From the sequence record PZ402305.1: a DNA stretch of 64,000 nt; one strand, given 5' to 3'. The position numbers and the translations under genes were made by a program. Within the stretch, counting starts at the first letter, position 1; each line of letters begins with the position of its first letter. The notes under the pieces were generated by a model. That model did not search any database. It saw nothing but the letters and a program-made list of their open reading frames with translations, and was not told the origin of the DNA. This document shows positions 46,839 through 60,478 of this stretch, in pieces. This DNA comes from a phage.

Positions 46839-47018
46839 ATGGCACGTTTAGCAGATCATGAAATCTTTAAACCTATTCTGAACCACTATGATGAACTTAA
46901 AGCAGTGTTGGATTGTTATAAAGAGGATGAAGAACGCTTGGAAGTCAATCTTAAGATAGTTCTGATGAAAGCTTTTCAAGACGGGCAAGCTAAAGTCTTA
47001 GAAGGTATGAAAAAATGA
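46839..47018 (+). CDS. hypothetical protein
   Basis: ATG at 46839 after RBS aaaggagaa. Confidence 0.4.
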   Translation: MARLADHEIFKPILNHYDELKAVLDCYKEDEERLEVNLKIVLMKAFQDGQAKVLEGMKK

Positions 47019-47557
47019 GAATAACTGACGAATATGTATTCTTCTTTTCACATAAAGATGTTTTTAGTAATTGGTATATTGCACCCTTTACAGAAACCGA
47101 ACCAGGTTACAATCAGACATTTAATTGTGTCGAACAATACATGATGTGGCGTAAAGCTTTGCTTTTTAATGACCACAACACTGCACAGGCTATTCTGACT
47201 CATAGTTTGATACGGAAAGATGAGAAGATCCAAGCTTATTACAAACGTATGGGTAGGGCAGTGTCGGATTTTGATAACAACGTATGGGAAGAGAACCGTG
47301 AGCGTATTGTTATGCGAGGTTTATGCTTGAAATATGTACAGAATCCAGATTTGTATGCAGACTTACACCTTTACCAATACAAAACGTTTGTTGAAGCAAG
47401 CCCCTACGATAAGGTTTACGGAATTGGAATGGGGATGTATGAACCAGGGGTGCTAAACCCTGCCACCTGGAAAGGGCAGAATCTTTTAGGCAAATATCAT
47501 AACAAACTGATCGAAATACTTTTCCCAGACAAAATACCGCAAAGACGATATTTGTGA
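47015..47557 (+). CDS. NADAR-family protein (YbiA-like)
   Basis: FFFSHKDVFSNWY...FNCVEQYMMWRKA and C-terminal EASPYDKVYGIGMG align with E. coli YbiA pattern (FYS...FSNF...EHYFQAQKF ... E.T.ND.YWGDG). Confidence 0.65.
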   Translation: MRITDEYVFFFSHKDVFSNWYIAPFTETEPGYNQTFNCVEQYMMWRKALLFNDHNTAQAILTHSLIRKDEKIQAYYKRMGRAVSDFDNNVWEENRERIVMRGLCLKYVQNPDLYADLHLYQYKTFVEASPYDKVYGIGMGMYEPGVLNPATWKGQNLLGKYHNKLIEILFPDKIPQRRYL

Positions 47558-47613
47558 TATTTTAACTTTTTTCATTTTTAGAACAAAGGTGTCACTTTGT
47601 AGCACAGAAATAA

Positions 47614-47652
47614 GGCTCCTACAACACTGTAGAGAGCCTATTATTTTGTCCT
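47614..47652 (+). terminator. imperfect hairpin with T-rich tail after NADAR gene
   Basis: ggctcctacaacactgtagagagcc followed by tattattttgtc. Confidence 0.4.
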
Positions 47653-47800
47653 ATACAAACACTTATCTTTTTCAGTTTGCATCATTAGGATTCGATCTAG
47701 GTGGGTTCCTGAAGGTCTGCCAATAAGATTAAAGGTTATCTCAAATTACCCCTACTTGTTATCTCAAAAATTCCTCAAATTATTTAAACTTTTTAAGAAT

Positions 47801-47986
47801 TTACAAAAGTGAAAGTTGAAAACCAAAATTTAAAGTTTAGGAAAATTATCTTAAAATGTTAGATACAAAACAAAACTCAAAAGTCAAGGAAAATTTTAAA
47901 AATTTTGCGCGCCCACAGTATTTAAAGTTTTTTTGCTTTTACAAAAATGAAAGTACAAAAGCAAAATTTAAAGTTTACAAAAATTT
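47801..47986. repeat. two ~47 bp direct repeats (iteron-like) in AT-rich non-coding region
   Basis: ttacaaaagtgaaagttgaaaaccaaaatttaaagtttaggaaaatt (47801-47847) vs ttttacaaaaatgaaagtacaaaagcaaaatttaaagtttacaaaaattt (47939-47986). Confidence 0.6.
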
Positions 47987-48024
47987 ATGCAGATGGGAAT
48001 GAGAAGAGTTCTCATATGGAAATG

Positions 48025-48046
48025 CAAATGATAATGATTCGCATTT
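48025..48046. promoter_or_regulatory. Fur-box-like near-palindrome A
   Basis: caAATGATAATGATTCGCATTt; resembles GATAATGATAATCATTATC. Confidence 0.35.
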
Positions 48047-48083
48047 AGGTTTATAAATGAGATTGATTCTTATTCGATAAGGT

Positions 48084-48104
48084 AAATGATAATCATTCTC
48101 ATTT
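48084..48104. promoter_or_regulatory. Fur-box-like near-palindrome B
   Basis: AAATGATAATCATTCTCATTT; one mismatch to core TGATAATCATTATC; 21-bp quasi-palindrome. Confidence 0.4.
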
Positions 48105-48362
48105 AGAGAATGACGCGCAGGGGCGGTGTTTGTCTCGCGTTCCCGTGTCCCCTCGCCATGTAATAAGAATAACAGATCCAGCCAGGAAAGCAAGCGATTA
48201 TTTCATCTTTACATTTCTTTACAAATATATAGCGCCCAGCCTACCGGCGATCAACCTTCCAACCAGTGCCCCTGGTATGTTAGCCCCGCCTTTACGCCGT
48301 GGGGTGGCGCTTCCTCTTCTGTATGTAAAACAGTATAAGCCCGATCCCTGGGCTTGTCAAGA

Positions 48363-48629
48363 TTATTTTTTGTTTTCTTGCCAGGATAGGACACCTAACC
48401 AAAAATACATATCGCCCCGCGCCCCTGGCGGGATCTTGCTTTCCCCGCCGCCACTGCAAGCCCATAGATAACCATTTGCGAACGTATCAAAATGATCTAT
48501 CTCTTCCACCTTATGATCGCCCAGGTTGAGAACGGTTTCAACCTTTAAGCCCGTTGCGCTTGCTACCTGGTGCACCGTGCCGCCTTGCCAGCCCAATGAG
48601 TGCATAAGGTGTAATGTAGTAGTTGTCAT
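48363..48629 (-). CDS. hypothetical protein in GC-rich island
   Basis: 88 aa ORF with RBS-like aaagggcg upstream; distinct GC-rich codon usage; followed on minus strand by TTGACA-17-TATACT promoter at ~48318-48346. Confidence 0.3.
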   Translation of the reverse strand: MTTTTLHLMHSLGWQGGTVHQVASATGLKVETVLNLGDHKVEEIDHFDTFANGYLWACSGGGESKIPPGARGDMYFWLGVLSWQENKK

Positions 48630-48737
48630 GGTATCGCCCTTTCTTTGTTGTGCGCCCTGGTTGGCGCGGTAGAAAGATGATAGCCCTTTCCTTTATATAT
48701 AGCAAGCAAAAAGAAAATAAAAAGATTGAAAAAGTGG

Positions 48738-48797
48738 TTGACGTTCGCCAGGTGGCGGCATAATATTTACCACGTAGGGCGGCAATGGTGCCGCTCA
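48738..48797 (+). promoter_or_regulatory. early promoter P1 + 5' stem-loop
   Basis: TTGACG-17-TAATAT-ttac-CACGTAGGGCGGCAATGGTGCCGCTCA; stem GCGGCA/TGCCGC. Confidence 0.7.
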
Positions 48798-48815
48798 CTA
48801 TTTGGAGTTAAGATC

Positions 48816-49013
48816 ATGGCAACATTGCACATTGTGGCGAAAGCTGGACAAATCAACGTAATAGTAAACGGTTTTACTGAGTTCAGTCATCCCCAGGATG
48901 ATCATGAAACGGTTTTATCTTTCATTGATTCACTGTTAGAAATGGGAGTAATTACAGAAGATCAGCATACTGCAAAATGCAAGCGCGTTAAGCAGATTGC
49001 AGGAATAGAATAA
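48816..49013 (+). CDS. early small protein (65 aa)
   Basis: ORF track start 48726 lies upstream of promoter P1; ATG at 48816 follows RBS ggag. Confidence 0.55.
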   Translation: MATLHIVAKAGQINVIVNGFTEFSHPQDDHETVLSFIDSLLEMGVITEDQHTAKCKRVKQIAGIE

Positions 49014-49018
49014 AAGTC

Positions 49019-49076
49019 TTGACAACAAGCCACAACCTGATAAGATGTATCACATAGGGGCGACAAGCGCCCCGCC
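49019..49076 (+). promoter_or_regulatory. early promoter P2 + 5' stem-loop
   Basis: TTGACA-16-TAAGAT-gtat-CACATAGGGGCGACAAGCGCCCCGCC. Confidence 0.7.
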
Positions 49077-49097
49077 TAACAGAAGAGAGAAATCATC

Positions 49098-49370
49098 ATG
49101 GCATCATATAGCGCAACAATGATCGTAACTGGCACCACTGGTAAACCGATGAGCGGTGGCGGATCTTTCGCTAATATCAATATTGACGGGCGTTTATCCC
49201 TGGACGCAGCGATTGCCATTGCACGGGAAACATTTAAGAAAGAATGTAATTTCAACAAGCAAGATTATCTCGGTTTCGCTATTGAAAAAACCGCGCGCTT
49301 TGTTGATTATAAAAGCCCGAAAATGGTTGATACTACACTAAAAGCGCAAGATGTAGCGTTTTTGCTTTAA
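49098..49370 (+). CDS. early small protein (90 aa)
   Basis: RBS agaagagag; follows P2. Confidence 0.6.
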   Translation: MASYSATMIVTGTTGKPMSGGGSFANINIDGRLSLDAAIAIARETFKKECNFNKQDYLGFAIEKTARFVDYKSPKMVDTTLKAQDVAFLL

Positions 49371-49373
49371 GGC

Positions 49374-49429
49374 TTGACATTAACGAATAATTTGTTAATA
49401 TGTTACATAAAGCGGGAATAGTTCCCGCT
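49374..49429 (+). promoter_or_regulatory. early promoter P3 + 5' stem-loop
   Basis: TTGACA-17-TAATAT-gtt-ACATAAAGCGGGAATAGTTCCCGCT. Confidence 0.7.
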
Positions 49430-49446
49430 ATTTGTAAGGTGGTAGA

Positions 49447-49704
49447 ATGTTTTACATCAAATTAAAAGGTCACGTGATCGCGTTCAAAGATAACGCTTTT
49501 TACAGATTAGCAAAATATGCGTTAATACATCCCCACTATGTTTATATAAGGGGGCGTGACGAAATAAATATTTTTGATCAAACAACATGCGAAAACATCG
49601 AGATCCGCAAGGTTGGCGTACGTGATTATCGTACATCTTTCTACCCTTGCAAGGATTCAGCAAGTCTTTTTAAGGTATGTCAATTGTTGAAAAAAGGTGG
49701 TTAA
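49447..49704 (+). CDS. early small protein (85 aa)
   Basis: RBS aaggtgg; follows P3. Confidence 0.6.
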   Translation: MFYIKLKGHVIAFKDNAFYRLAKYALIHPHYVYIRGRDEINIFDQTTCENIEIRKVGVRDYRTSFYPCKDSASLFKVCQLLKKGG

Positions 49705-49705
49705 T

Positions 49706-50263
49706 ATGGGCCGCGAATATGTGATCCAGTCTTGGGTAAAACATGAAGCAGATGATCCGCGCATCATTCCCGATCATCTTATCGATGAATCCACGGGATA
49801 TAGCGGTGAGCAAATAGGTAGCAGATTAGCACGTAGTAACGGCAACGTAAAAGCGCGTTATGTGCGCCCTGGCTGGCTGGCAAATGGTAACGCTGATTTA
49901 TCCAGTGCGGAAGATGCGAGCGACGGCGCGAAAGATAATCCTTTGTACAAAGTTGATCCGGCTTTTCGTGTCCTGGATGAATACCCCAGCAAGATAGCGG
50001 CGCTCGATCAGGCCCTGGAAAGTAAGCGCATCACCTGGACCGCTTACAACATGGCAAAAAACGTACTTGATGGTAAATTGATTCAAGCTGAAAGAAAATT
50101 AGCCAAAATTGCAGCCATAGCCCAGGAGGAAGACGAGGAGACAACGGAAGAGGAAGAGTACGAAGAGATCCCGCCGTTGTTGTGCGTTGATGCTTTTCCT
50201 GATTATCAGCCGACAGAGGAAGAAAAAAGGATCGCACTAGAAAACTTTGAAAATAGTCTTTGA
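49706..50263 (+). CDS. early acidic protein (185 aa)
   Basis: ATG at 49706 after RBS aaaaggtgg (ORF track GTG 49697); C-terminal third strongly acidic (EEDEETTEEEEYEE). Confidence 0.55.
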   Translation: MGREYVIQSWVKHEADDPRIIPDHLIDESTGYSGEQIGSRLARSNGNVKARYVRPGWLANGNADLSSAEDASDGAKDNPLYKVDPAFRVLDEYPSKIAALDQALESKRITWTAYNMAKNVLDGKLIQAERKLAKIAAIAQEEDEETTEEEEYEEIPPLLCVDAFPDYQPTEEEKRIALENFENSL

Positions 50264-50319
50264 CATATCGCCGCCACTGGCATAATATTTACCACGTAGG
50301 GCGGCAATGGTGCCGCTCA
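50259..50319 (+). promoter_or_regulatory. early promoter P4 + 5' stem-loop
   Basis: TTGACA overlapping preceding stop; CATAAT -10; stem-loop identical to P1. Confidence 0.7.
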
Positions 50320-50345
50320 TAGTGAAATTATGCAAGAGGCTTACA

Positions 50346-50441
50346 ATGATTAATAAAGAAAATAGCTTGACGGTTGGAACGATTAACGCTATCATTTTCG
50401 CCGTTCCATTTTGGGTTGTATTAGCGGCTATTATTTTCTAA
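50346..50441 (+). CDS. early hydrophobic micro-protein (31 aa)
   Basis: Not in ORF track (<60 aa); ATG after agagg; MINKENSLTVGTINAIIFAVPFWVVLAAIIF is a single TM helix; sits between P4 and P5. Confidence 0.35.
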   Translation: MINKENSLTVGTINAIIFAVPFWVVLAAIIF

Positions 50442-50451
50442 AAAAATATTC

Positions 50452-50512
50452 TTGACAACGTTTTTTAATCTGATAAGATGTATCACATAGGGCGGCGGAA
50501 TACTTCCCCGCC
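50452..50512 (+). promoter_or_regulatory. early promoter P5 + 5' stem-loop
   Basis: TTGACA-16-TAAGAT-gtat-CACATAGGGCGGCGGAATACTTCCCCGCC. Confidence 0.7.
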
Positions 50513-50533
50513 AAAACAAAAAAGGGTAACACA

Positions 50534-50896
50534 ATGAGCAAGCAAATCAATACTATCATGTTTAATCTGGTATCTTTCCGCGATGATATGAAAAATTTAC
50601 CACGTGAAACGGTTGATATTCATGTTTCAGCTTATCGCGCCCTTATTGATATGTTACCGCTAAAACGTGATCAACATGCCGCTAATATGATGCTTAATGC
50701 TATGCTTAAAAAGATGATTCAAACGGATCTTACTCTGGCGTATGAGTATCAAGGGCGCTTATATGCTACTTACAACAAAGCGGTACCTGGTCTGGGAAGT
50801 ACCGAAGAGTTGCACGGCTTAAACCTGGATCAAAACACTTGGGATAGTATGCGCCGCGTTATGGTATGGGCCGAAAGCGGTAAAATTTACGAATAA
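50534..50896 (+). CDS. early small protein (120 aa)
   Basis: RBS aaaggg; follows P5. Confidence 0.6.
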   Translation: MSKQINTIMFNLVSFRDDMKNLPRETVDIHVSAYRALIDMLPLKRDQHAANMMLNAMLKKMIQTDLTLAYEYQGRLYATYNKAVPGLGSTEELHGLNLDQNTWDSMRRVMVWAESGKIYE

Positions 50897-50902
50897 AAAC
50901 GG

Positions 50903-50959
50903 TTGACACTGTTTAAAATTCTGGTATAGTTTATCACGTAGGGCGGCAATGGTGCCGCC
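50903..50959 (+). promoter_or_regulatory. early promoter P6 + 5' stem-loop
   Basis: TTGACA-17-TATAGT-ttat-CACGTAGGGCGGCAATGGTGCCGCC. Confidence 0.7.
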
Positions 50960-50979
50960 AATAATAAAAGGTTAACATC

Positions 50980-51159
50980 ATGGCTATCATTGCAAAAACT
51001 GAGATTATAGGTTTAGATTCGATCCTCCTGGCTTATGAGGAAACTTTAAAAATGTATGTAGTGACCTATGGTGATTATGTGCGTGAATACGAATACATTG
51101 ATCTTGCTTTCGAATGTTACATTCGCCAGGTCAATAAAGCCTATAACGATTATCGTTAA
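50980..51159 (+). CDS. early small protein (59 aa)
   Basis: Not in ORF track; RBS aaaagg; ATG at 50980 follows P6. Confidence 0.45.
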   Translation: MAIIAKTEIIGLDSILLAYEETLKMYVVTYGDYVREYEYIDLAFECYIRQVNKAYNDYR

Positions 51160-51178
51160 AAGTTTTAGTCTTATACTA

Positions 51179-51230
51179 TTGACAATGAGTGATAGTATAA
51201 GCATAATAACTTTTATCGGGAATACTTCCC
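51179..51230 (+). promoter_or_regulatory. early promoter P7 + 5' stem-loop
   Basis: TTGACA-...-CATAAT-...-CGGGAATACTTCCC. Confidence 0.6.
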
Positions 51231-51256
51231 ACTAACCAAAAAGAGAGAGTGACACC

Positions 51257-51622
51257 ATGGCTATTAATATCAATGTTTCCGTTTATGCTACCCTGGCTGA
51301 CACGGCTAAAATTGAATTATCCAGCATTGAGGCGGTGCATATTAGCGCCCGTCGCTGGTTTCAACAGTCCTACGGTAACACATATTTTTCTTTAATAGTT
51401 GACGTTGAGATCGGCGGTAAACTGATCGAGGTGGTTAACGTTCCGTTTCAATATGGCTATGGTGATCATTTTGATACCGTCGCCCTGGAAGAATTTAGCA
51501 AGGTTATCAACCTTGAGGGCAAGGAATTTTCACGCGGCGCGTATCTTTCCCGTTTTTGCCGTGACAATGGGATCACTGTATACAGTCATGCAAGCGATGT
51601 AAAACGTAAAAAAGATTTATAA
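51257..51622 (+). CDS. early small protein (121 aa)
   Basis: RBS aagagagag; follows P7. Confidence 0.6.
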   Translation: MAININVSVYATLADTAKIELSSIEAVHISARRWFQQSYGNTYFSLIVDVEIGGKLIEVVNVPFQYGYGDHFDTVALEEFSKVINLEGKEFSRGAYLSRFCRDNGITVYSHASDVKRKKDL

Positions 51623-51627
51623 AAGTA

Positions 51628-51690
51628 TTGACAGCACGAATAAAAAGAGTAAACTGTATTACATAGAGAGCGGGAACACTTCCCGCCTCA
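51628..51690 (+). promoter_or_regulatory. early promoter P8 + 5' stem-loop
   Basis: TTGACA-16-TAAACT-gtatt-ACATAGAGAGCGGGAACACTTCCCGCCTCA. Confidence 0.7.
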
Positions 51691-51710
51691 CTGAAAAAGA
51701 GAGAAAAATC

Positions 51711-51950
51711 ATGGCTAAATCTAAAATGTACAACGGTCACAAAAACAAAACTCATTGGAATGTAAGCCTTTGGATTAATAACGATGAATCATTATATCGG
51801 TTGGCGAAAGAATTTATCGCCGCTAATACTAATCGTAATGATGCTGCGCGGGATATGATGCTTTTTCTGGAACAAACTGGACAAGATAAAACGCCAGACG
51901 GTTTCAAATATAGCACTACTGCGATCCGCGCCGCGATGGTTGGAATGTAA
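51711..51950 (+). CDS. early small protein (79 aa)
   Basis: RBS aaagagag; follows P8. Confidence 0.6.
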   Translation: MAKSKMYNGHKNKTHWNVSLWINNDESLYRLAKEFIAANTNRNDAARDMMLFLEQTGQDKTPDGFKYSTTAIRAAMVGM

Positions 51951-51959
51951 TAAAAACAG

Positions 51960-52019
51960 TTGACAACGTTTAAAATTAGTGTAAGATGTATCACATAGGG
52001 CGGGAAGTGGTTTCCCGCC
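51960..52019 (+). promoter_or_regulatory. early promoter P9 + 5' stem-loop
   Basis: TTGACA-16-TAAGAT-gtat-CACATAGGGCGGGAAGTGGTTTCCCGCC. Confidence 0.7.
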
Positions 52020-52041
52020 AACAACAGAGAGATTAAAGATT

Positions 52042-52269
52042 ATGGCTATCAATATTGTTCGCGTATCCGGCACCGTTGGCACTTCCCAGGTTATTGCAGT
52101 TGTAACAAACAAAAAGATTAATGATGTATGTGAGATCTTGAATAAGTGGGCTATTGCTAATTTTGGGGAATATGCAAGCGTCGAGTACATCGAATCCTAC
52201 CAGGTGCCAACCATCAGCCTAACCGATCTCAACGTTGATCGCCTGTTATGCCTGGATGAATTAATCTGA
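52042..52269 (+). CDS. early small protein (75 aa)
   Basis: RBS agagag; follows P9. Confidence 0.6.
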   Translation: MAINIVRVSGTVGTSQVIAVVTNKKINDVCEILNKWAIANFGEYASVEYIESYQVPTISLTDLNVDRLLCLDELI

Positions 52270-52278
52270 AAAAGATTG

Positions 52279-52337
52279 TTGACACGGGAAAGAAAAAGAG
52301 TAAACTATATTACGTAGGGCGGCAATGGTGCCGCTCA
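52279..52337 (+). promoter_or_regulatory. early promoter P10 + 5' stem-loop
   Basis: TTGACA-16-TAAACT-atat-TACGTAGGGCGGCAATGGTGCCGCTCA. Confidence 0.7.
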
Positions 52338-52359
52338 CAACAGAAGAGAGATTATCACG

Positions 52360-52572
52360 ATGGCTAATATCCGCACACTGTTAAAAAATGCAAAACAAGT
52401 TTTATTTTCTGATCACAATCATTTTAATAAAGATATTACAGGCGTGAAGAATATCAAAGATGTAAAAAGTGTTATGGGTATATATTGCAATGTTAAACGT
52501 GTTGGAACGTTCGGTGACAAGGTATTGTATCAATCAGGTGATTACAATTTTACTTTGACGATTATTTCATAA
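52360..52572 (+). CDS. early small protein (70 aa)
   Basis: RBS agaagagag; follows P10. Confidence 0.6.
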   Translation: MANIRTLLKNAKQVLFSDHNHFNKDITGVKNIKDVKSVMGIYCNVKRVGTFGDKVLYQSGDYNFTLTIIS

Positions 52573-52577
52573 AACGC

Positions 52578-52638
52578 TTGCAATACTGCAAAAATAAAGT
52601 AAACTGTATTACATCAAGGCGGGGAATGGTCCACCGCC
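52578..52638 (+). promoter_or_regulatory. early promoter P11 + 5' stem-loop
   Basis: TTGCAA-...-TAAACT-gtatt-ACATCAAGGCGGGGAATGGTCCACCGCC. Confidence 0.65.
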
Positions 52639-52662
52639 TAACAAAGAGAAGAGGAAAACATC

Positions 52663-52830
52663 ATGATTACTTTTACTACCCGTGAAGCCGCTCGCAACGT
52701 TGCACGTAAAGTTAACGCCGCCAACCTGGGTGCTACGCTTAAAGCCCCTGTAAAAGATGAATCAGGCAAATGGATCTTCCCTGGTCTGCGTCATGCTGAC
52801 AAGTTAGGTACTTTAAGCCTTAAAAAATAA
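52663..52830 (+). CDS. early small basic protein (55 aa)
   Basis: Not in ORF track; RBS agaggaaaa; follows P11. Confidence 0.45.
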   Translation: MITFTTREAARNVARKVNAANLGATLKAPVKDESGKWIFPGLRHADKLGTLSLKK

Positions 52831-52833
52831 TCG

Positions 52834-52871
52834 TTGACTTTTCGTTATAGCGCCTTATAATGGGCGCTATA
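52834..52871 (+). promoter_or_regulatory. early promoter P12 with -10 embedded in palindrome
   Basis: TTGACT then TATAGCGCC-TTATAAT-GGGCGCTATA perfect inverted repeat enclosing the TATAAT hexamer. Confidence 0.55.
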
Positions 52872-52908
52872 GAGAAGAGAAACCAATCACCAGAAAGAGA
52901 GAAAGAAA

Positions 52909-53127
52909 ATGGCAATCCGTAAAATTAAAGTTGTTTGCATTGAATCAACTGGTGGCGCGTTTGTAGTTGGTCAGAAGTATAATGCGGTTTTAATGGGCGT
53001 GGATTGGAAGGTTAAAGGTCTTGACGGTTACGAATACGGCACTACTCGCGGCTTGCGTGGTCGAATCGGATACGTGAGCTTTGACAACAAAGAAAAATTT
53101 GTTTTCGATACTGTTATGAGTAAATAG
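52909..53127 (+). CDS. early small protein (72 aa)
   Basis: RBS agagagaaag; follows P12. Confidence 0.6.
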   Translation: MAIRKIKVVCIESTGGAFVVGQKYNAVLMGVDWKVKGLDGYEYGTTRGLRGRIGYVSFDNKEKFVFDTVMSK

Positions 53128-53200
53128 CACGAATTGCTAAAAACTAATCTGCGAATTGCTGTAATATCAACTAATCGAAACACATAAAGAGAAAAACATC

Positions 53201-53422
53201 ATGATCACTTTCGCTATTGTCACCGTTGTCGCTGGTCAAGTTTACGTAAATGAGACATTTACTACAGAAGACAAAGCAGCAGGAGATATAACCGCCGTTT
53301 ACAACGAGTGCAAGGCAGTAGAAAGGATGTTAGCGCCTTGTATGCTAATGAGTGAACGCCAGGACGGGATAACAGTGTTTAGCAACATTGAAACAGGGTA
53401 CCAAATGGTAGTAACAAAATAA
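53201..53422 (+). CDS. early small protein (73 aa)
   Basis: RBS aaagagaaa; upstream promoter less clear (TTGCTA / TGTAATAT), no stem-loop. Confidence 0.55.
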   Translation: MITFAIVTVVAGQVYVNETFTTEDKAAGDITAVYNECKAVERMLAPCMLMSERQDGITVFSNIETGYQMVVTK

Positions 53423-53425
53423 AAC

Positions 53426-53483
53426 TTGACACAGATTTAATTTTCAGTAAACTGTTACACATAGGGCGGGAATAGTTCCCGCT
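53426..53483 (+). promoter_or_regulatory. early promoter P13 + 5' stem-loop
   Basis: TTGACA-...-TAAACT-gtta-CACATAGGGCGGGAATAGTTCCCGCT. Confidence 0.7.
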
Positions 53484-53500
53484 AAAAAGAGAGAAAGACC

Positions 53501-53854
53501 ATGAAAGCACAAAATGCAATTAAAGAGTACATCCTTGCCGCTATCGATTTTAATGATTATGGTATTACAACCGAAAAAGAGAAGATCGCGGAATTGATGC
53601 GCCGTTTTAATTCCGAGTACTGGTACCCTGATAATCAATCACGTTTTAATTATAGTATTGTTAAAGCACTTGCATCATGGTTACAAGGTTTGCCATCAGA
53701 CATTAATATCGCTTTCGAATATTGGGAAATTGATCGTTTGTTAACATCCTGGGGATACATTAAAGAGAATAGCAGCGATGATAAAATCCAACGAGAAAGG
53801 GAAAATTATTGGCTTTATATTGCAGGCGTGATCCTTGCTTGCTCTTATGAATGA
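53501..53854 (+). CDS. early small protein (117 aa)
   Basis: RBS aagagagaaag; follows P13. Confidence 0.6.
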   Translation: MKAQNAIKEYILAAIDFNDYGITTEKEKIAELMRRFNSEYWYPDNQSRFNYSIVKALASWLQGLPSDINIAFEYWEIDRLLTSWGYIKENSSDDKIQRERENYWLYIAGVILACSYE

Positions 53855-53860
53855 TAAACC

Positions 53861-53917
53861 TTGACAATTTTACAAAACAGCTTAAATTAATAATATAGCG
53901 GCAATGGTGCCGCTCAT
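53861..53917 (+). promoter_or_regulatory. early promoter P14 + 5' stem-loop
   Basis: TTGACA-16-TTAAAT-taatat-AGCGGCAATGGTGCCGCTCA. Confidence 0.65.
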
Positions 53918-53933
53918 ATAAAGAGGAAACAAA

Positions 53934-54080
53934 ATGAATACATCTAATCGCGCAGAAAAAATTCAATCTCCCAAGATCCGCAAGGCCTGGAACGAGGAAG
54001 TGATCCGCAAAGGCGACAAGCGTAATAAAACAAAGCGCGGGAAGAGTGACAAATATAATTGGATGGATTTAGAGGATTAA
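53934..54080 (+). CDS. early small basic protein (48 aa)
   Basis: Not in ORF track; RBS aagaggaaa; Lys/Arg-rich; followed by strong terminator. Confidence 0.4.
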   Translation: MNTSNRAEKIQSPKIRKAWNEEVIRKGDKRNKTKRGKSDKYNWMDLED

Positions 54081-54086
54081 CATAAC

Positions 54087-54114
54087 AAGGGCGCACCAAG
54101 CGCCCTTTCTTTTT
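54087..54114 (+). terminator. rho-independent terminator (copy 1)
   Basis: aaGGGCGCaccaaGCGCCCtttcttttt; identical core to terminator at 59172-59200. Confidence 0.8.
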
Positions 54115-54135
54115 ACATGTAGAGGATAAACAAAA

Positions 54136-54321
54136 ATGACTTTAAACGAGCTTAAAACAGCCTACAACGCAACGTTAAAAATAGCCGTGCGTTACCGTGA
54201 CGAATACGGTTTTATTGCGCAGGGCGTGATCCTGGGCTTTTCTGACGATGGTTTGATTTATGTTGATGCACATCACAACAAGGTTAAACCGGAAAACGTT
54301 ATCAGTATAAAATATCTTTAA
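54136..54321 (+). CDS. early small protein (61 aa)
   Basis: RBS agaggataaa. Confidence 0.5.
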   Translation: MTLNELKTAYNATLKIAVRYRDEYGFIAQGVILGFSDDGLIYVDAHHNKVKPENVISIKYL

Positions 54322-54327
54322 AAGTGG

Positions 54328-54388
54328 TTGACACCATAACCGGACCTGTTAAACTGTATTACATCAGGCGGGGGAATAGTTCCCCACC
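54328..54388 (+). promoter_or_regulatory. early promoter P15 + 5' stem-loop
   Basis: TTGACA-...-TAAACT-gtatt-ACATCAGGCGGGGGAATAGTTCCCCACC. Confidence 0.65.
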
Positions 54389-54407
54389 ATACAAAAAGGT
54401 AAATATT

Positions 54408-54614
54408 ATGATCACCGCAAAACAAGAAAAAATCATTATCGACGTTGCAGCCGTTGCCGCTATTGCTATTATTGGATCTTATTATGATACCCGTTTCCCG
54501 TCGGCTATGCATGAGGTCGCCGCCGTTGCATCAGTTGGCGTACTGTTTTACGTTGGTAAACGCTATTTATCACCAATGATTAACAAGCTGACACCGTGGA
54601 AAAATAAAGGTTGA
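54408..54614 (+). CDS. early small membrane protein (68 aa)
   Basis: ORF track start 54324 is upstream of promoter; ATG at 54408 after aaaaagg; hydrophobic helix VAAVAAIAIIGSYY. Confidence 0.5.
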   Translation: MITAKQEKIIIDVAAVAAIAIIGSYYDTRFPSAMHEVAAVASVGVLFYVGKRYLSPMINKLTPWKNKG

Positions 54615-54668
54615 TCCTGTTTTATATTGTGTTATAGTTATCGTGTAGGGCGGCAATGGTGCCGCGCC
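54611..54668 (+). promoter_or_regulatory. early promoter P16 + 5' stem-loop
   Basis: TTGATC-...-TATAGT-tatc-GTGTAGGGCGGCAATGGTGCCGCGCC. Confidence 0.6.
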
Positions 54669-54685
54669 CCTTTGAGGATGCAATC

Positions 54686-54970
54686 ATGAGTAAAGCTAAC
54701 ACCGTGCTAATGTTTTCCCTGATTAATGATCCCGCTTACTTGTCCAACATGACGCAGGAGGGTAACACATTAACGGCAACATTCACCAATAAGCTTGACC
54801 GAGTGATCATCATCTCACTGAAAACAGTTAGTAAAGGCTTTTACTCGTTAGCTTATCATTGGATCACTGATACCGATGAGACAAGCCAGGACTATAGCGC
54901 CCCTTTCCCTGAATCAATGGCACGGGAGATCATCGCCGCCGTTGTAAATGATGGTTTGTTTACTGCATAA
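54686..54970 (+). CDS. early small protein (94 aa)
   Basis: ORF track start 54656 overlaps stem-loop; ATG at 54686 after gaggatg. Confidence 0.5.
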   Translation: MSKANTVLMFSLINDPAYLSNMTQEGNTLTATFTNKLDRVIIISLKTVSKGFYSLAYHWITDTDETSQDYSAPFPESMAREIIAAVVNDGLFTA

Positions 54971-54985
54971 AAATTTAGAAAAGGC

Positions 54986-55042
54986 TTGCAATAATTTTGA
55001 GATAGTGTATATTTAATTCATAGGGCGGCGGGAATAGTTCCC
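54986..55042 (+). promoter_or_regulatory. early promoter P17 + 5' stem-loop
   Basis: TTGCAA-...-TATATT-taat-TCATAGGGCGGCGGGAATAGTTCCC. Confidence 0.6.
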
Positions 55043-55065
55043 AAAGCAAACGAGAGGATTACACG

Positions 55066-55185
55066 ATGAGCAAGTACACAGTAGAATACACGGTAGAGAA
55101 TCCGGCAGTATCCGAAGGTAAAAAGATGACATTTGCCATCAGTATAATCGCTTTCGTTGTCACTATCTTATCAATCATCTTATAA
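55066..55185 (+). CDS. early hydrophobic micro-protein (39 aa)
   Basis: Not in ORF track; RBS gagagg; C-terminal TM helix FAISIIAFVVTILSIIL. Confidence 0.35.
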   Translation: MSKYTVEYTVENPAVSEGKKMTFAISIIAFVVTILSIIL

Positions 55186-55195
55186 GGTGCACACC

Positions 55196-55357
55196 ATGAA
55201 AATAACAGACATTATCAAAGAGATCGCCCTTGCCGCTGGCGTTGAAGTCGAGGAAGTGATCGCGCTCAATCTTACAGAAAACGATCTGCGCAACTATGAA
55301 GCGGAAAGCGTGAAAGCAAGCGGCGCGGTCCTGGTATATGATCCGGCTAACAAGTAA
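55196..55357 (+). CDS. early small protein (53 aa)
   Basis: ORF track start 55157; ATG at 55196 after taaggtg. Confidence 0.45.
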   Translation: MKITDIIKEIALAAGVEVEEVIALNLTENDLRNYEAESVKASGAVLVYDPANK

Positions 55358-55366
55358 GGGGATAAC

Positions 55367-55477
55367 ATGAATCCGAAAGATATGCAAGCATGGAAAGGGT
55401 ACGACGATCTAAGCGCCTTGCGCAATAAGTCAAGCCGTAACCTTAGACGGTTGGAAGCAAAGAAAAAGAAAAAATAG
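55367..55477 (+). CDS. early small basic protein (36 aa)
   Basis: Not in ORF track; RBS aagggga; ends in KKKKK. Confidence 0.3.
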   Translation: MNPKDMQAWKGYDDLSALRNKSSRNLRRLEAKKKKK

Positions 55478-55478
55478 T

Positions 55479-55537
55479 TTGACAAGTCCGCGTAGTCTGA
55501 TAATATGTATCTTGTAGGGCGGCAATGGTGCCGCTCA
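55479..55537 (+). promoter_or_regulatory. early promoter P18 + 5' stem-loop
   Basis: TTGACA-17-TAATAT-gtat-CTTGTAGGGCGGCAATGGTGCCGCTCA. Confidence 0.7.
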
Positions 55538-55555
55538 CAAGAAGAGAGAAAAATC

Positions 55556-55840
55556 ATGAAAATTACAAAAAGCCTAACTAATTATGCAGCACGTCGCGGA
55601 TTATGTTTAACCGTTGAAAACTTAGGGAAAGAAGACTTTTTGTGTTTTTGGGAGCTTGAAAATGATTGCGAGTGGATGTTTTCTTATTCTATCTGCGAAG
55701 ATCAAAACGGTTGTTTGTTAACCTGGCGCGGTAATATCTATTTACCGGAAGAAATCAAAGAGGAACTACCAGGCACGATCATGACTGAGAAACAGCTTAA
55801 GGAAGTGATCAATTTTGTAGGGCAAAACATTAAAAAATAA
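55556..55840 (+). CDS. early small protein (94 aa)
   Basis: ORF track start 55505 is inside promoter; ATG at 55556 after agaagagagaaaa. Confidence 0.55.
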   Translation: MKITKSLTNYAARRGLCLTVENLGKEDFLCFWELENDCEWMFSYSICEDQNGCLLTWRGNIYLPEEIKEELPGTIMTEKQLKEVINFVGQNIKK

Positions 55841-55841
55841 T

Positions 55842-55907
55842 TTGACAGTAGGCAAACAACGTAGTAAAGTTTATTACATAGAGCGGCGGAATGGTCCACC
55901 GCTCACA
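55842..55907 (+). promoter_or_regulatory. early promoter P19 + 5' stem-loop
   Basis: TTGACA-...-TAAAGT-ttatt-ACATAGAGCGGCGGAATGGTCCACCGCTCA. Confidence 0.65.
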
Positions 55908-55925
55908 ACAGAAGAGAAACAAATC

Positions 55926-56096
55926 ATGATCCCGACTATGTTTTATGTATCGCGCAAAGGTCACAATATTTTTTGGTCTGAAGATTTAAATGAAGCTATG
56001 ACGTTTGCCCGTAATCGTGTTGCTATCGGTGGCGTTAACATCACCGTAACCGATGAAAATGGCATTGAATACTATAACGGCGACGATGAAGAATAA
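55926..56096 (+). CDS. early small protein (56 aa)
   Basis: ORF track start 55842 overlaps promoter; ATG at 55926 after agaagagaaac. Confidence 0.5.
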   Translation: MIPTMFYVSRKGHNIFWSEDLNEAMTFARNRVAIGGVNITVTDENGIEYYNGDDEE

Positions 56097-56101
56097 TTAA
56101 T

Positions 56102-56128
56102 GAGGCGGGGGGAGTATTCCCCGCCGTC
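56102..56128 (+). promoter_or_regulatory. promoter-less GC stem-loop (terminator/processing-site candidate)
   Basis: GAGGCGGGGGGAGTATTCCCCGCCGTC hairpin of the same type as the 5' stem-loops but without upstream TTGACA. Confidence 0.4.
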
Positions 56129-56174
56129 AATATGGCGGGGCAATAAGGCAACGCCCATTAATGAGGGTAAAATC

Positions 56175-56279
56175 ATGTTAGAGAAAATTTTCACGGTTGC
56201 AGTGGTTGGCCTGGCGTTATCGGTTGGAGTGGTTGCAACTATGGCTAACATGATCCTATCTTCCCACGGTATCGGTTAA
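56175..56279 (+). CDS. early hydrophobic micro-protein (34 aa)
   Basis: Not in ORF track; RBS gagggtaaa; MLEKIFTVAVVGLALSVGVVATMANMIL is a TM helix. Confidence 0.35.
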   Translation: MLEKIFTVAVVGLALSVGVVATMANMILSSHGIG

Positions 56280-56289
56280 GGTGAAACAA

Positions 56290-56505
56290 ATGATCACGAA
56301 CAAAACAGGCAAAACGGAATTTTTACGCGGCTTACAAGTTGGTAAGCCTGAGATCTGGCATTGCACGAAGTCCGCGCATAATGAAATGAAAGATTTCACC
56401 GCTACTTTACAACGTGTTAAAATATCTATTACACAGAAAAAAGCCTTGTTAGTAGTAGAAAACGAGATCCCACAAACTATTATTATTGTCGAGCGTACAG
56501 CATGA
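56290..56505 (+). CDS. early small protein (71 aa)
   Basis: ATG at 56290 after taaggtg (ORF track GTG 56281). Confidence 0.5.
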   Translation: MITNKTGKTEFLRGLQVGKPEIWHCTKSAHNEMKDFTATLQRVKISITQKKALLVVENEIPQTIIIVERTA

Positions 56506-56888
56506 AAACAGAAATCATTATTGAAATCATCAACGGCTATAAAGAAGCTTTTATTTTTGCTGAATCAGCAAGGGATCATGAAGGTAATTTTATTGATAAC
56601 TTAGACGATTATGATTTTTCTCCTAGCGCGGACGAACGGATCGCCCAGGATGTAACAGCCTTTATTAATGCTAATCTTGCCGCTATCTCTGAGGCAATGA
56701 GCGACGGCGCAACAGCCAACCAGATCGGGAATGATTTACATTTTACCCGTAACAGTCACGGCGTAGGCTTTTGGGATCGCCCTGAAATATACACCACTAA
56801 CACGGCGAACCGCCTAACCAATGCAGCTAAGTTTATGCCGAACGTGTCGGCTTACATTGGTGAAGATAATTTGATTTATATTGAATAA
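56502..56888 (+). CDS. early protein (128 aa)
   Basis: 4-nt overlap with upstream gene. Confidence 0.55.
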   Translation: MKTEIIIEIINGYKEAFIFAESARDHEGNFIDNLDDYDFSPSADERIAQDVTAFINANLAAISEAMSDGATANQIGNDLHFTRNSHGVGFWDRPEIYTTNTANRLTNAAKFMPNVSAYIGEDNLIYIE

Positions 56889-56894
56889 AAAGTA

Positions 56895-56953
56895 TTGACA
56901 CAGATCGCCAGTGTGCTAATATTTACCACGTAGGGCGGCAATGGTGCCGCTCC
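56895..56953 (+). promoter_or_regulatory. early promoter P20 + 5' stem-loop
   Basis: TTGACA-17-TAATAT-ttac-CACGTAGGGCGGCAATGGTGCCGCTCC. Confidence 0.7.
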
Positions 56954-60273: not shown

Positions 60274-60295
60274 AAATAATAATCATTCTCATATG
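60274..60295. promoter_or_regulatory. Fur-box-like near-palindrome C
   Basis: AAATAATAATCATTCTCATATG; shares ATAATCATTCTCAT core with box B at 48084. Confidence 0.35.
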
Positions 60296-60452: not shown

Positions 60453-60478
60453 GAATGATAATTATTCTCATTCGCATG
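60453..60478. promoter_or_regulatory. Fur-box-like near-palindrome D
   Basis: GAATGATAATTATTCTCATTCGCATG; shares GATAAT..ATTCGCAT with box A at 48025. Confidence 0.35.

What the first reader, a model, noticed from the sequence alone, without database searches (positions are those of the whole stretch)
48110..48700. GC-rich island with a minus-strand ORF and a promoter whose spacer is a hairpin
About 600 bp of markedly higher GC than the flanks, where overlapping ORF-track predictions on both strands are mutually incompatible. One 88 aa minus-strand ORF (48363-48629) has a plausible RBS. Immediately after its stop the minus strand reads TTGACA, a 17-nt spacer agcccagggatcgggct that is itself an inverted repeat, then TATACT, pointing into the GC-rich segment. 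This could be a structured non-coding RNA, a regulator gene of foreign origin, or a promoter occluded by hairpin formation.
Basis: seen in the sequence. Interest (0 to 1): 0.4.

Follow-up and report, generated by a model that had tools for sequence, protein, structure and literature searches.

The report
Phage small-RNA gene beside tiny ORF
The GC-rich island in this phAPEC8-like coliphage holds a real 88-residue protein gene whose terminator hairpin sits inside the promoter of an unannotated, pseudoknotted small RNA that is conserved from E. coli phages to Aeromonas phages and matches no described RNA family.

Summary
In detail: the GC-rich island, the 88-aa minus-strand ORF and a TTGACA-17-TATACT promoter with a hairpin spacer are all present.

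The window is a Phapecoctavirus genome. The ORF is a real gene of unknown function, with same-length homologs down to 47% identity and mostly third-codon changes.

The hairpin-in-spacer promoter is conserved in about 45 distinct phages. The boxes stay fixed while the hairpin sequence changes. It is absent or weak where no upstream gene on the same strand is seen. This is the architecture of the "PeSL" promoter/terminator cassettes of T4-type phages, so occlusion is not needed to explain it.

Downstream of the promoter, at 48325→48241 on the minus strand, lies an ~85-nt element at 60% GC. It has a bulged hairpin, an H-type pseudoknot and an invariant ~20-nt single strand. Eleven of 16 pairs show compensatory changes, and 0 of 500 shuffles reach the observed values.

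It occurs in Stephanstirmvirinae, Vequintavirinae and Aeromonas Plateaulakevirus. In Plateaulakevirus it is a compact promoter–RNA–terminator gene. It has no Rfam match and no real bacterial copy.

The function is unknown. My working model is an early, trans-acting small RNA.

A phased array of Fur-box-like palindromes lies just beyond it and also occurs in T5-like phages.

The parts
48677..48705 (-). Probable promoter of the 88-aa ORF (TTGCTA-17-TATCAT). It lies back-to-back with the + strand early promoter at 48738-48766.
   Evidence: 9/12. One search shows a 5' stem-loop GCGCC(48667-63)/GGCGC(48656-52) and the RBS downstream. Function is inferred.
48363..48629 (-). 88-aa protein gene (phrog_19316), function unknown.
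   Evidence: Twenty-one homolog clusters at 47-98% identity; all but two are 86-93 aa. 70% identity to Avunavirus Av-05 and 42-43% to the SSBI34 and CB7 ORFs. Codon-position changes 17/12/38 against Av-05. AlphaFold2 pLDDT 94 with five helices, but no fold match.
48332..48360 (-). Promoter P1 (TTGACA, 17 nt, TATACT). Its spacer is the hairpin 48355-48337, read here as the ORF's intrinsic terminator (tail AUACUGUUUU). This is a PeSL-like composite terminator/promoter.
   Evidence: Conserved boxes with changing hairpin sequences in about 45 phages. GNRA loops and U-rich tail on the minus strand. PeSL architecture described in PMC2839356.
48241..48326 (-). Core of the conserved small RNA; predicted 5' end near 48326-48324. 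In + coordinates the helices are:
- P2: C48256-G48283 and T48257-A48282.
- H2 (bulged hairpin): 48260-61 with 48278-79, and 48263-66 with 48272-75.
- S1/H4: CGCC 48295-98 with GGCG 48306-09.
- S2/H3: CCCC 48284-87 with GGGG 48301-04. S1 and S2 together make the pseudoknot.
- Invariant single strand: 48241-48260, which is GGAAGGUUGAUCGCCGGUAG on the RNA.
   Evidence: Covariance model R1 and alignment A3. Pair counts. No Rfam match. Only copy in the window. Compact gene with its own terminator in Aeromonas phages.
48203..48240 (-). A/U-rich conserved stretch after the core (UAUUUGUAAAGAAAUGUAAAGA). It contains GTAAA-N5-GTAAA at 48222-48208. It may be part of the RNA or an upstream element of P2.
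   Evidence: One hit against 0.3 expected, so not significant in the window alone; it is conserved in most genera.
48166..48193 (-). Candidate second promoter P2. It is weak here (TTGCTT-16-TATTCT) and better in other genera (TTGCAA-17-TATATT).
   Evidence: My reading of the alignment. Not listed by the scan. Inferred.
48090..48160 (-). 'Module b': conserved ACATGGCG..GAGACAAACACC..GTCATTC, ending in the hairpin 48114-48092 with a T-rich tail. This hairpin is a possible 3' end of the minus-strand transcripts.
   Evidence: No robust consensus fold.
48000..48101 (.). Four 15-bp palindromes TGAnAATnATTnTCA spaced exactly 29 bp apart (48000, 48029, 48058, 48087). They are Fur-box-like, and 48082-48100 matches the Fur consensus at 16 of 19 positions.
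   Evidence: Conserved as arrays in other genera. The same palindromes occur in T5-like phage EC105. Fur binding was not tested.
47776..47985 (.). AT-rich (about 25% GC) direct repeats of 72 nt, 138 bp apart, between the palindromes and the terminator of the upstream + strand genes.
   Evidence: Role unknown.

Best explanation
The island is a small minus-strand transcription module set inside + strand early genes of a Phapecoctavirus.

1. A sigma-70-type promoter near 48705-48677 drives a real 88-aa gene of unknown function.
2. The gene's transcript ends at the GC-rich hairpin 48355-48337. That hairpin lies between the -35 and -10 of the next promoter, P1, so one 29-bp cassette both terminates the ORF and starts the next unit. 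This is the PeSL design.
3. P1 starts a non-coding RNA near 48325. Its first ~85 nt fold into a 5' H-type pseudoknot (CGCC/GGCG with the loop CCCC pairing to a downstream GGGG) and a bulged hairpin. An invariant single strand follows, GGAAGGU(N)GAUCGCCGGUAG.

Shown here: the sequence features, their conservation, the covariation, and the coding signature of the ORF.

Inferred: that the minus strand is the RNA strand, that P1 fires, that the hairpin terminates, and where the RNA ends.

My working model for function is an early, host-RNA-polymerase-made, trans-acting small RNA. The scaffold would present the invariant 20-nt strand to a partner conserved across gamma-proteobacterial hosts or across these phages. 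That last step is a guess; I give it about one chance in three.
For: **Identity and breadth**
- The window is 95-97% identical to phAPEC8-like phages.
- Only window ~48085-48329 stays alignable at 68-78% DNA identity in distant genera (Mydo-, Certre-, Seuna-, Avuna- and Henunavirus), where it is mostly unannotated.
- The covariance model finds one copy per locus in 65 of 67 sources, including Aeromonas Plateaulakevirus. Raoultella phage Ro1 has two copies and slur16 has none.

**Structure**
- 88% of cells are paired. Eleven of 16 pairs have compensatory changes, and 0 of 500 shuffles reach the observed values.
- Sliding the 3' partners by 1-3 columns drops pairing to 21-55%.
- Helix H3 was not used to build the alignment, yet it switches CG to AU in 13 sequences.
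- Loop indels of 1-8 nt and a 47-nt insertion of three hairpins rule out coding.

**Strand**
- P1 lies at a fixed 14-18 nt from the core in about 45 phages.
- Aeromonas phages have TTGCTT-17-TATAAT, then the core, then an A/U-rich tail, then a canonical terminator whose stem covaries (GCCAGC/GCTGGC against GCCCG/CGGGC).
- In Raoultella phage Ro1 an HNH endonuclease gene with a Shine-Dalgarno sequence but no visible promoter sits about 25 nt after the core on this strand.
- Pseudoknot loop lengths fit the classical H-type only on the minus strand: L1 = 1 nt and L3 = 7 nt. This is inference from the established geometry of H-type pseudoknots.

**Hairpin as terminator**
- Of 13 tetraloops, 9 are GNRA on the minus strand and 1 on the plus strand.
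- The 10-nt tail holds 4.4 U on the minus strand against 2.9 on the plus strand.
- The hairpin is absent in three Aeromonas-phage lineages where the upstream ORF is divergent. It is weak in two Erwinia phages with no upstream minus ORF annotated.
- PeSL stem-loops between -35 and -10 were shown to terminate in RB49/phi1 (PMC2839356).

**ORF**.
Against: - There are no transcript data of any kind.
- Wobble counts do not settle the strand. Seven cells are G-U on the plus strand, and about 14 are A-C on the plus strand, which would be G-U on the minus strand. These are spread over a few terminal pairs.
- On the plus strand, H4 followed by a pyrimidine-rich run looks like a weak terminator.
- In the window's own lineage no conserved terminator follows the core, so the RNA's length (85 to about 235 nt) is undefined.
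- P2 is a poor match in the window.
- No target or partner was found. Pairing of the invariant strand with the 16S 3' tail is no better than 8.6% of shuffles.
- The window has no second site resembling the core.
- Three lineages without a strong hairpin were not checked for an upstream gene.
Confidence: 0.62

Rival explanations
1. The element works at the DNA level, or as a primer RNA of a replication origin. In this reading P1 and P2 transcribe toward the phased palindromes and the AT-rich repeats. The GC-rich RNA would prime or open the origin, as with ColE1 RNA II or the T4 and T7 origin transcripts. Alternatively the hairpins are single-strand DNA initiation signals.
For: - The gene-less gap of about 1 kb is syntenic across genera.
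- It holds four palindromes at 29-bp phasing and 72-nt AT-rich direct repeats at about 25% GC.
- Both candidate promoters point into that region.
- Wobble counts favour neither strand, as expected for DNA hairpins.
Against: - In Aeromonas phages the core is a compact promoter-to-terminator gene wedged between two protein genes, with no palindromes or AT-rich repeats next to it.
- GNRA loops and an asymmetric pseudoknot geometry point to RNA.
- In T5 the same palindromes lie in the terminal-repeat 'iss' region, which the paper's author argues is not the origin.
Confidence: 0.15
2. The plus strand is the functional RNA. A transcript would start at a promoter overlapped by the Fur-box-like palindromes near 48064-48093, run through module b and the core, and stop at H4 (48295-48309) plus CUUCCUCUUC. 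This would be an iron-regulated small RNA in the style of RyhB.
For: - A strong Fur-like site lies at 48082-48100.
- H4 with a T/C-rich tail scores as terminator-like on the plus strand.
- Three lineages have G-U on the plus strand in H3 and two in H4.
- The stem U-G in the module b hairpin of CB7 works only on the plus strand (my reading).
Against: - No conserved plus-strand promoter was found. TTGATT-18-GATAAT is my own reading and is not conserved.
- H4 is only 4 bp.
- On the plus strand pseudoknot loop 3 would be 1 nt, which is sterically implausible.
- The Aeromonas-phage genes have promoter and terminator in the minus orientation.
- The unpaired regions would be C-rich, which is unusual for structured RNAs (my judgement).
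Confidence: 0.1
3. One reading: the spacer hairpin (as a cruciform, or extruded in single-stranded DNA) occludes or tunes promoter P1.
For: The hairpin lies exactly between -35 and -10 and is conserved there.
Against: - Loop and tail asymmetry indicate an RNA hairpin read on the minus strand.
- The hairpin is lost or weak in five lineages where I saw no upstream co-directional ORF, while the promoter is kept.
- A known cassette type explains the layout without occlusion.
Confidence: 0.05
4. The GC-rich stretch 48126-48471 is protein-coding on the plus strand, as annotated in phAPEC8 (phAPEC8_00257, 113 aa).
For: The ORF exists and is annotated in some records.
Against: - No Pfam or PHROG match.
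- Annotations disagree between near-identical phages.
- Loop indels of 1, 2, 5 and 8 nt, even among 97%-identical phages, break the frame.
- The conservation pattern is that of paired helices.
Confidence: 0.02

Closest known systems
PeSL (promoter-early stem-loop) cassettes of T4-type phages RB49/phi1 (Arbiol et al. 2010, PMC2839356; Comeau et al. 2014, PMC4122927)
   Same: Both have a strong sigma-70-like promoter with a GC-rich stem-loop, most often between -35 and -10. Both sit right after the stop codon of a small ORF of unknown function. In PeSLs the stem-loop acts as terminator for the upstream gene. Both are associated with a slot where unrelated small genes replace each other.
   Different: This phage is not a T4-type phage. 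The cassette is single, not a repeated family: it is unique among 65 promoter-like sites in the window. It is followed by a non-coding RNA instead of a Shine-Dalgarno sequence and gene. It is conserved at one locus across subfamilies. Termination and recombination were not tested here.
Pseudoknotted phage or antitoxin RNAs, e.g. ToxI and the pseudo-ToxI of rV5-like phage PhiTE (Blower et al. 2012, PMC3475682)
   Same: Both are small non-coding RNAs encoded by an rV5-like virulent myovirus, transcribed in an intergenic gap, with function resting on RNA fold.
   Different: [quoted passage not shown] The element here is single-copy and not repetitive, sits between the phiTE_078 and phiTE_079 homologs, and has no Rfam match.
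Fur box (GATAATGATAATCATTATC; 7-1-7 TGATAATnATTATCA) and Fur-repressed small RNAs such as RyhB
   Same: The palindromes next to the RNA match the 7-1-7 motif. One site matches the 19-mer at 16 of 19 positions.
   Different: They form a 29-bp phased array of four sites in a virulent phage. They do not overlap P1, and they recur in T5-like phages. No sequence similarity to RyhB was seen by eye. Fur binding is untested.
Origin primer or activator transcripts (ColE1 RNA II; T4 oriF/oriG; T7 primary origin). This comparison is from general knowledge.
   Same: Host-polymerase promoters point into an AT-rich repeat region, and the transcript is GC-rich and structured.
   Different: The Aeromonas-phage version is a self-contained terminated gene without adjacent origin-like repeats.

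Membership tests
PeSL composite promoter/terminator | Sigma-70-like -35 and -10 boxes with 16-18 nt spacing | tested here: met
   TTGACA-17-TATACT, 11/12. Conserved in about 45 phages.
PeSL composite promoter/terminator | Stable GC-rich stem-loop within or overlapping the promoter, directly after the stop codon of the upstream ORF | tested here: met
   Hairpin 48355-48337 begins 7 nt after the TAA, at about -8.8 kcal/mol. Thirty-eight of 47 distinct relatives have a hairpin of -6 kcal/mol or better.
PeSL composite promoter/terminator | Stem-loop terminates upstream transcription and the promoter is active | not testable with these tools
   Indirect evidence only: GNRA loops and U-rich tail on the minus strand, and loss of the hairpin where no upstream co-directional ORF was seen.
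PeSL composite promoter/terminator | Many similar copies flanking small genes in hyperplastic regions, followed by a Shine-Dalgarno sequence and start codon | tested here: not met
   It is unique in the window. It is followed by a non-coding RNA, with no ORF or start codon at SD distance.
Any Rfam 15 family | Covariance-model score at or near the gathering threshold | tested here: not met
   Zero hits at gathering threshold in the window. Only chance snoRNA and miRNA hits, on the palindromes, with E-values up to 10 or up to 1.
tRNA or tRNA-like gene | Cloverleaf detected by ARAGORN | tested here: not met
   Zero tRNAs in the window and in L004. The tRNA features in record OY978796.1 are misplaced.
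H-type RNA pseudoknot | Two helices, with a hairpin loop pairing to a distal strand, both supported by covariation | tested here: met
   H4: 62-126 and 64-122 change on both sides. H3: 53-115 is CG in 35 sequences and AU in 13, and 54-114 takes AU, CG, UA and GC.
H-type RNA pseudoknot | Loop lengths compatible with coaxial stacking | tested here: inconclusive
   On the minus strand L1 = 1, L2 = 2 and L3 = 7 nt, and L3 tolerates a 47-nt insertion.
Fur box | Match to GATAATGATAATCATTATC or the 7-1-7 motif | tested here: met
   16 of 19 at 48082-48100, with 0.03 matches expected. Nine 7-1-7 matches against 1.9 expected.
Fur box | Fur-Fe(II) binding and iron-dependent regulation | not testable with these tools
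   No data. Sharing with unrelated T5-like phages argues for a host factor but does not prove it.
Type III antitoxin RNA (ToxI-like) | Tandem direct repeats of about 34-36 nt next to a toxin gene | tested here: not met
   The core is single-copy. The PhiTE pseudo-ToxI lies at a different locus.
CpxR box (GTAAA-N5-GTAAA; consensus quoted from memory) | Exact consensus upstream of a promoter | tested here: inconclusive
   Present at 48222-48208. One hit against 0.30 expected; 29% of shuffles have at least one. Conserved in most but not all genera.

The most novel reading that the evidence does not exclude
This is an undescribed family of phage small RNAs. It has a 5' H-type pseudoknot, a bulged hairpin and an invariant 20-nt single strand. 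It has been kept for a very long time in large virulent myoviruses of Enterobacterales and Aeromonas. In this reading it acts in trans on a conserved host component or defence system, as a decoy, inhibitor or regulator. In the enterobacterial phages it sits in a control region wired to host transcription factors: a phased array of Fur boxes that T5-like phages also carry in their first-injected DNA. If so, virulent phages would read or titrate the host iron regulator.
Probability: 0.3. Interest if true: 0.8.

Novelty: new variant of a known kind. Interest (0 to 1): 0.6.

Why it matters
- **An overlooked RNA gene.** Large virulent coliphages used in phage therapy, such as phAPEC8-like and rV5-like phages, are annotated almost wholly as protein genes. 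This locus is unannotated in most of the records examined, and in several others it carries conflicting, probably spurious ORF calls. A small RNA kept nearly unchanged across phage subfamilies, while its flanks no longer align, is likely to do something important early in infection. It is short enough to test directly.
- **PeSL design outside T4-type phages.** The locus shows the PeSL promoter/terminator design at a slot where unrelated small genes and a homing endonuclease have been swapped in.
- **Fur-box-like arrays.** If the palindromes shared with T5-like phages do bind Fur, they would link lytic phage programmes to host iron status.

Tried and rejected
- **Host origin of the island.** There was no match in 5,426 E. 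coli genomes with blastn at E up to 0.01.
- **Bacterial copies of the core.** The scan of 185,579 species genomes gave 8 hits. Seven were chance matches; three of them were one conserved Acidobacteria sequence that looked like a coding gene. The eighth was a phage contig binned as a MAG.
- **tRNA cluster.** This was suggested by features in OY978796.1. ARAGORN found none, and the features are misplaced.
- **Known RNA family.** None was found.
- **Consensus fold for module b.** RNAalifold found only the palindrome itself.
- **Pairing of the invariant strand with the 16S rRNA 3' tail.** The duplex is -12.5 kcal/mol, and 8.6% of shuffles do as well.
- **A second target-like site in the window.** None was found.
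- **TCTTTACA as a recurring phage promoter motif.** It does not recur.
- **A conserved protein partner next to the RNA.** The neighbouring ORFs belong to at least three unrelated families.
- **Long-range helix CGGCG/CGCCG as an alternative to H4.** It is broken in the Aeromonas phages, whereas H4 is kept there by compensation.
- **Literature.** I found no description of this RNA or of Fur boxes in these phages.
Full report
**What the window is.** The region 47600-49100 is 95-97% identical to phAPEC8-like coliphages (Stephanstirmvirinae, Phapecoctavirus). Annotations of the island disagree between near-identical records. phAPEC8 calls a plus-strand 113-aa ORF, tuntematon calls the minus-strand 88-aa ORF, and P3322 calls a 70-aa minus ORF.

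**Observation check.**
- GC rises to 0.47-0.54 over 48100-48700. The left flank is at 0.24-0.28 and the right flank at about 0.39-0.45.
- ORFs overlap on both strands.
- The minus strand carries the 88-aa ORF (48363-48629) with AAGGG 7 nt upstream of its ATG. Two bases after its stop comes TTGACA, then AGCCCAGGGATCGGGCT, then TATACT, spanning 48360-48332.
- The spacer fold (-8.8 kcal/mol) is the strongest among 65 promoter-like sites in the window.

**The ORF is a real gene.**
- It matches phrog_19316 over its whole length.
- A search of 5.8 billion proteins gave 21 clusters at 47-98% identity; all but two are 86-93 aa.
- Homologs occupy the same slot in Avunavirus Av-05 (70%), in Certrevirus CB7 and in Salmonella phage SSBI34 (42-43%).
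- Against Av-05 the substitutions fall 17/12/38 on codon positions 1/2/3.
- A candidate promoter (TTGCTA-17-TATCAT, 48705-48677) and a 5' stem-loop precede it.
- Function is therefore unknown, and my by-eye helix-turn-helix reading is unsupported.
- Other genera carry unrelated small ORFs in the same slot: DUF7170 in GAP31, KB57 and Ro1, and another family in KP2025.

**A conserved non-coding element lies next to the ORF.**
- A sensitive blastn search showed that only window ~48085-48329 remains alignable, at 68-78% identity. The matching phages belong to Mydovirus, Certrevirus, Seunavirus, Avunavirus and Henunavirus.
- rV5-like Vequintavirus phages match only partially, over about 48085-48203.
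- In those records the stretch lies in a syntenic, mostly unannotated gap of about 1 kb.
- tRNA features in one record are misplaced.
- The most conserved part is 48241-48325, at 60% GC.
- Pattern scans of IMG/VR, metagenomes and 185,579 species genomes returned it only from phage-like contigs. Bacterial hits were chance matches or a phage contaminant.

**Structure of the core.**
- I built a covariance model from 25 sequences using only nested hairpins. I realigned 67 hits, of which 50 are distinct.
- Counting a 16-pair structure gave 88% of cells paired and 11 pairs with compensatory changes. No shuffle out of 500 reached the observed percentage paired, number of compensated pairs or covariation score.
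- Pairing collapsed to 21-55% when the partners were slid by 1-3 columns.
- Helix H3 pairs CCCC at 48284-87 with GGGG in the loop of the hairpin CGCC/GGCG. It was not part of the model, yet it switches to CCAA/UUGG, CCAG/CUGG and CCAU/AUGG.
- Loop indels of 1-8 nt, and a 47-nt insertion made of three hairpins in two Aeromonas-phage lineages, exclude coding and look like RNA.
- Rfam has no match in the window or in ten relatives.

**Which strand.** Wobble counts are mixed. Four independent lines favour the minus strand:
1. P1 is conserved at 14-18 nt from the core in about 45 distinct phages. The -35 is TTGACA, TTGACG or TTGCAA. The -10 is TATACT, TATAAT, TATATT, CATAAT or TACAAT.
2. In Aeromonas phages (Plateaulakevirus) the element is a compact gene in this orientation. 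TTGCTT-17-TATAAT is followed by the core, an A/U-rich tail and a canonical terminator. The terminator stem covaries (GCCAGC/GCTGGC against GCCCG/CGGGC) and is followed by a U-run. The gene sits in a 310-bp gap between protein genes on the other strand.
3. In Raoultella phage Ro1 an HNH endonuclease gene (phrog_953, E = 8e-79) sits about 25 nt after the core on this strand. It has a Shine-Dalgarno sequence but no visible promoter. A second, divergent promoter+hairpin+core copy follows it.
4. On the minus strand the pseudoknot has loop 1 = 1 nt and loop 3 = 7 nt, which is the classical H-type geometry. On the plus strand loop 3 would be a single nucleotide. This is inference from established pseudoknot stereochemistry.

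**The hairpin in the promoter spacer.**
- Across relatives the boxes stay and the hairpin sequence changes. Examples are AGCCC/GGGCT, GCCCGGC-GAAA-GCTGGGC, CCGGGC-GCAA-GCCTGG and GGGGC-GAAA-GCCCC.
- Thirty-eight of 47 distinct versions fold at -6 kcal/mol or better.
- Nine of 13 tetraloops are GNRA on the minus strand, against one on the plus strand.
- The 10-nt tail holds 4.4 U on the minus strand and 2.9 on the plus strand.
- The hairpin is missing in three Aeromonas-phage lineages (L040, L061, L019). The upstream ORF is divergent in the two whose context I examined.
- It is weak in two Erwinia phages that have no upstream minus ORF annotated. The promoter is kept in all of these.
- The simplest reading is an intrinsic terminator for the upstream ORF nested in the next promoter.
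- This architecture was described and tested as the PeSL cassette of T4-type phages. There the stem-loop most often lies between -35 and -10 and terminates transcription (PMC2839356; PMC4122927).
- Here the cassette is single, conserved at one locus, and feeds an RNA gene. It therefore works like a PeSL without belonging to a repeated PeSL family.

**Beyond the core, reading 5' to 3' on the minus strand.**
- First comes a conserved A/U-rich stretch containing GTAAA-N5-GTAAA. This matches the CpxR-box consensus as I recall it, but it is not significant in the window alone.
- Next is a second promoter-like site, P2, which is better in other genera than here.
- Then comes 'module b', with a conserved GAGACAAACACC loop but no robust consensus fold.
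- A hairpin with a T-rich tail at 48114-48092 follows.
- After that come four 15-bp palindromes, TGAnAATnATTnTCA, spaced exactly 29 bp apart.
- The best palindrome matches the Fur consensus at 16 of 19 positions, with 0.03 matches expected.
- The same palindromes cluster beside the DnaA boxes at the end of the terminal repeat of T5-like phage EC105. A comparative paper on that T5 region lists these repeats without naming Fur.
- I found no paper describing Fur boxes in these phages.
- Whether transcripts from P1 stop before, at or beyond this array is unknown.

**Mechanism: what I commit to.**
- Most likely (about 0.6): an early minus-strand module made of ORF, then composite terminator/promoter, then a pseudoknotted small RNA.
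- For function I favour a trans-acting RNA whose invariant single strand, GGAAGGU(N)GAUCGCCGGUAG, is the recognition surface. It is conserved even in Aeromonas phages, its flanking genes are unrelated, and it forms a self-contained gene there.
- This is inference. No partner was found, and the 16S-tail idea failed its control.
- The main rival is an origin or primer role, suggested by the palindromes and the AT-rich repeats. The Aeromonas arrangement weakens it.
- A plus-strand, Fur-controlled RNA and promoter occlusion are less likely. Plus-strand coding is effectively excluded.

**Verdict.**
- The promoter/hairpin is a known kind of cassette in a new setting.
- The ORF is an ordinary small phage gene of unknown function.
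- The neighbouring RNA is a well-supported, undescribed structured RNA family of unknown function.
- Interest is 0.6.

Noticed in passing
window 48000-48101; also 59409-59423, 59469-59483, 60277-60291, 60456-60470: Fur-box-like palindromes TGAnAATnATTnTCA: nine in the window against 1.9 expected. Four of them sit at exact 29-bp phasing. The others lie in a second long stretch at 59.3-60.6 kb that looks non-coding by eye and is partly A/C-rich.
   Followed up: partly
L018 (Escherichia phage EC105, Tequintavirus) 1390-1570: At least five copies of the same palindrome lie directly beside paired DnaA boxes. This is the non-coding region at the end of the left terminal repeat, the T5 'injection stop signal' repeat region. 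The accessible literature does not call them Fur boxes.
   Followed up: partly
L016 (Raoultella phage Ro1) 420-1360: An HNH homing endonuclease gene is inserted right after the core RNA, after GGATCGCTGGTA. A second, divergent copy of promoter, hairpin spacer and core follows it. The invariant strand may be the endonuclease's target.
   Followed up: partly
window 47776-47985: Two 72-nt AT-rich direct repeats, 138 bp apart at about 25% GC, with nested 29-nt repeats. They lie between the palindrome array and the terminator of the upstream + strand genes.
   Followed up: no
window 48208-48222 (-): GTAAAGAAATGTAAA matches GTAAA-N5-GTAAA, the CpxR-box consensus as I recall it. It lies just upstream of candidate promoter P2 and is conserved in most enterobacterial phage genera but not in Aeromonas phages. 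It is not significant by itself.
   Followed up: partly
L057 4974-5084; L024 4309-4419; L032 1174-1310; L046 4017-4125; L047 9818-9909: A second copy of 'module b' (palindrome, GAATAGC, and a hairpin with a different loop) lies about 7-8 kb from the main element. The loci include a Mydovirus (L024) and a Henunavirus (L032).
   Followed up: no
window 48738-48766 and 49019-56900 (+): A dense series of TTGACA-16/17-TAAnAT promoters occurs every 300-500 bp ahead of small + strand genes. The three whose sequence I read (48738, 49019, 50260) are followed by a GC-rich 5' stem-loop. The one at 48738 also has a small hairpin (CGCC AGGT GGCG) in its spacer.
   Followed up: partly
L004 (OY978796.1, Klebsiella phage K45PH128C2) 2504-3199: Three tRNA features are annotated where ARAGORN finds no tRNA. 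They are probably coordinates misplaced in the record.
   Followed up: yes
window 48130-48471 (+): The ORF annotated as phAPEC8_00257 in the reference phage overlaps the structured RNA and the 3' end of the 88-aa gene. It is probably a spurious call.
   Followed up: yes
window 47015-47557 (+): The last gene before the non-coding gap (180 aa, MRITDEYVFFFSHKDVFSNWY...) looked to me like a NADAR/YbiA-type domain. This was not checked.
   Followed up: no
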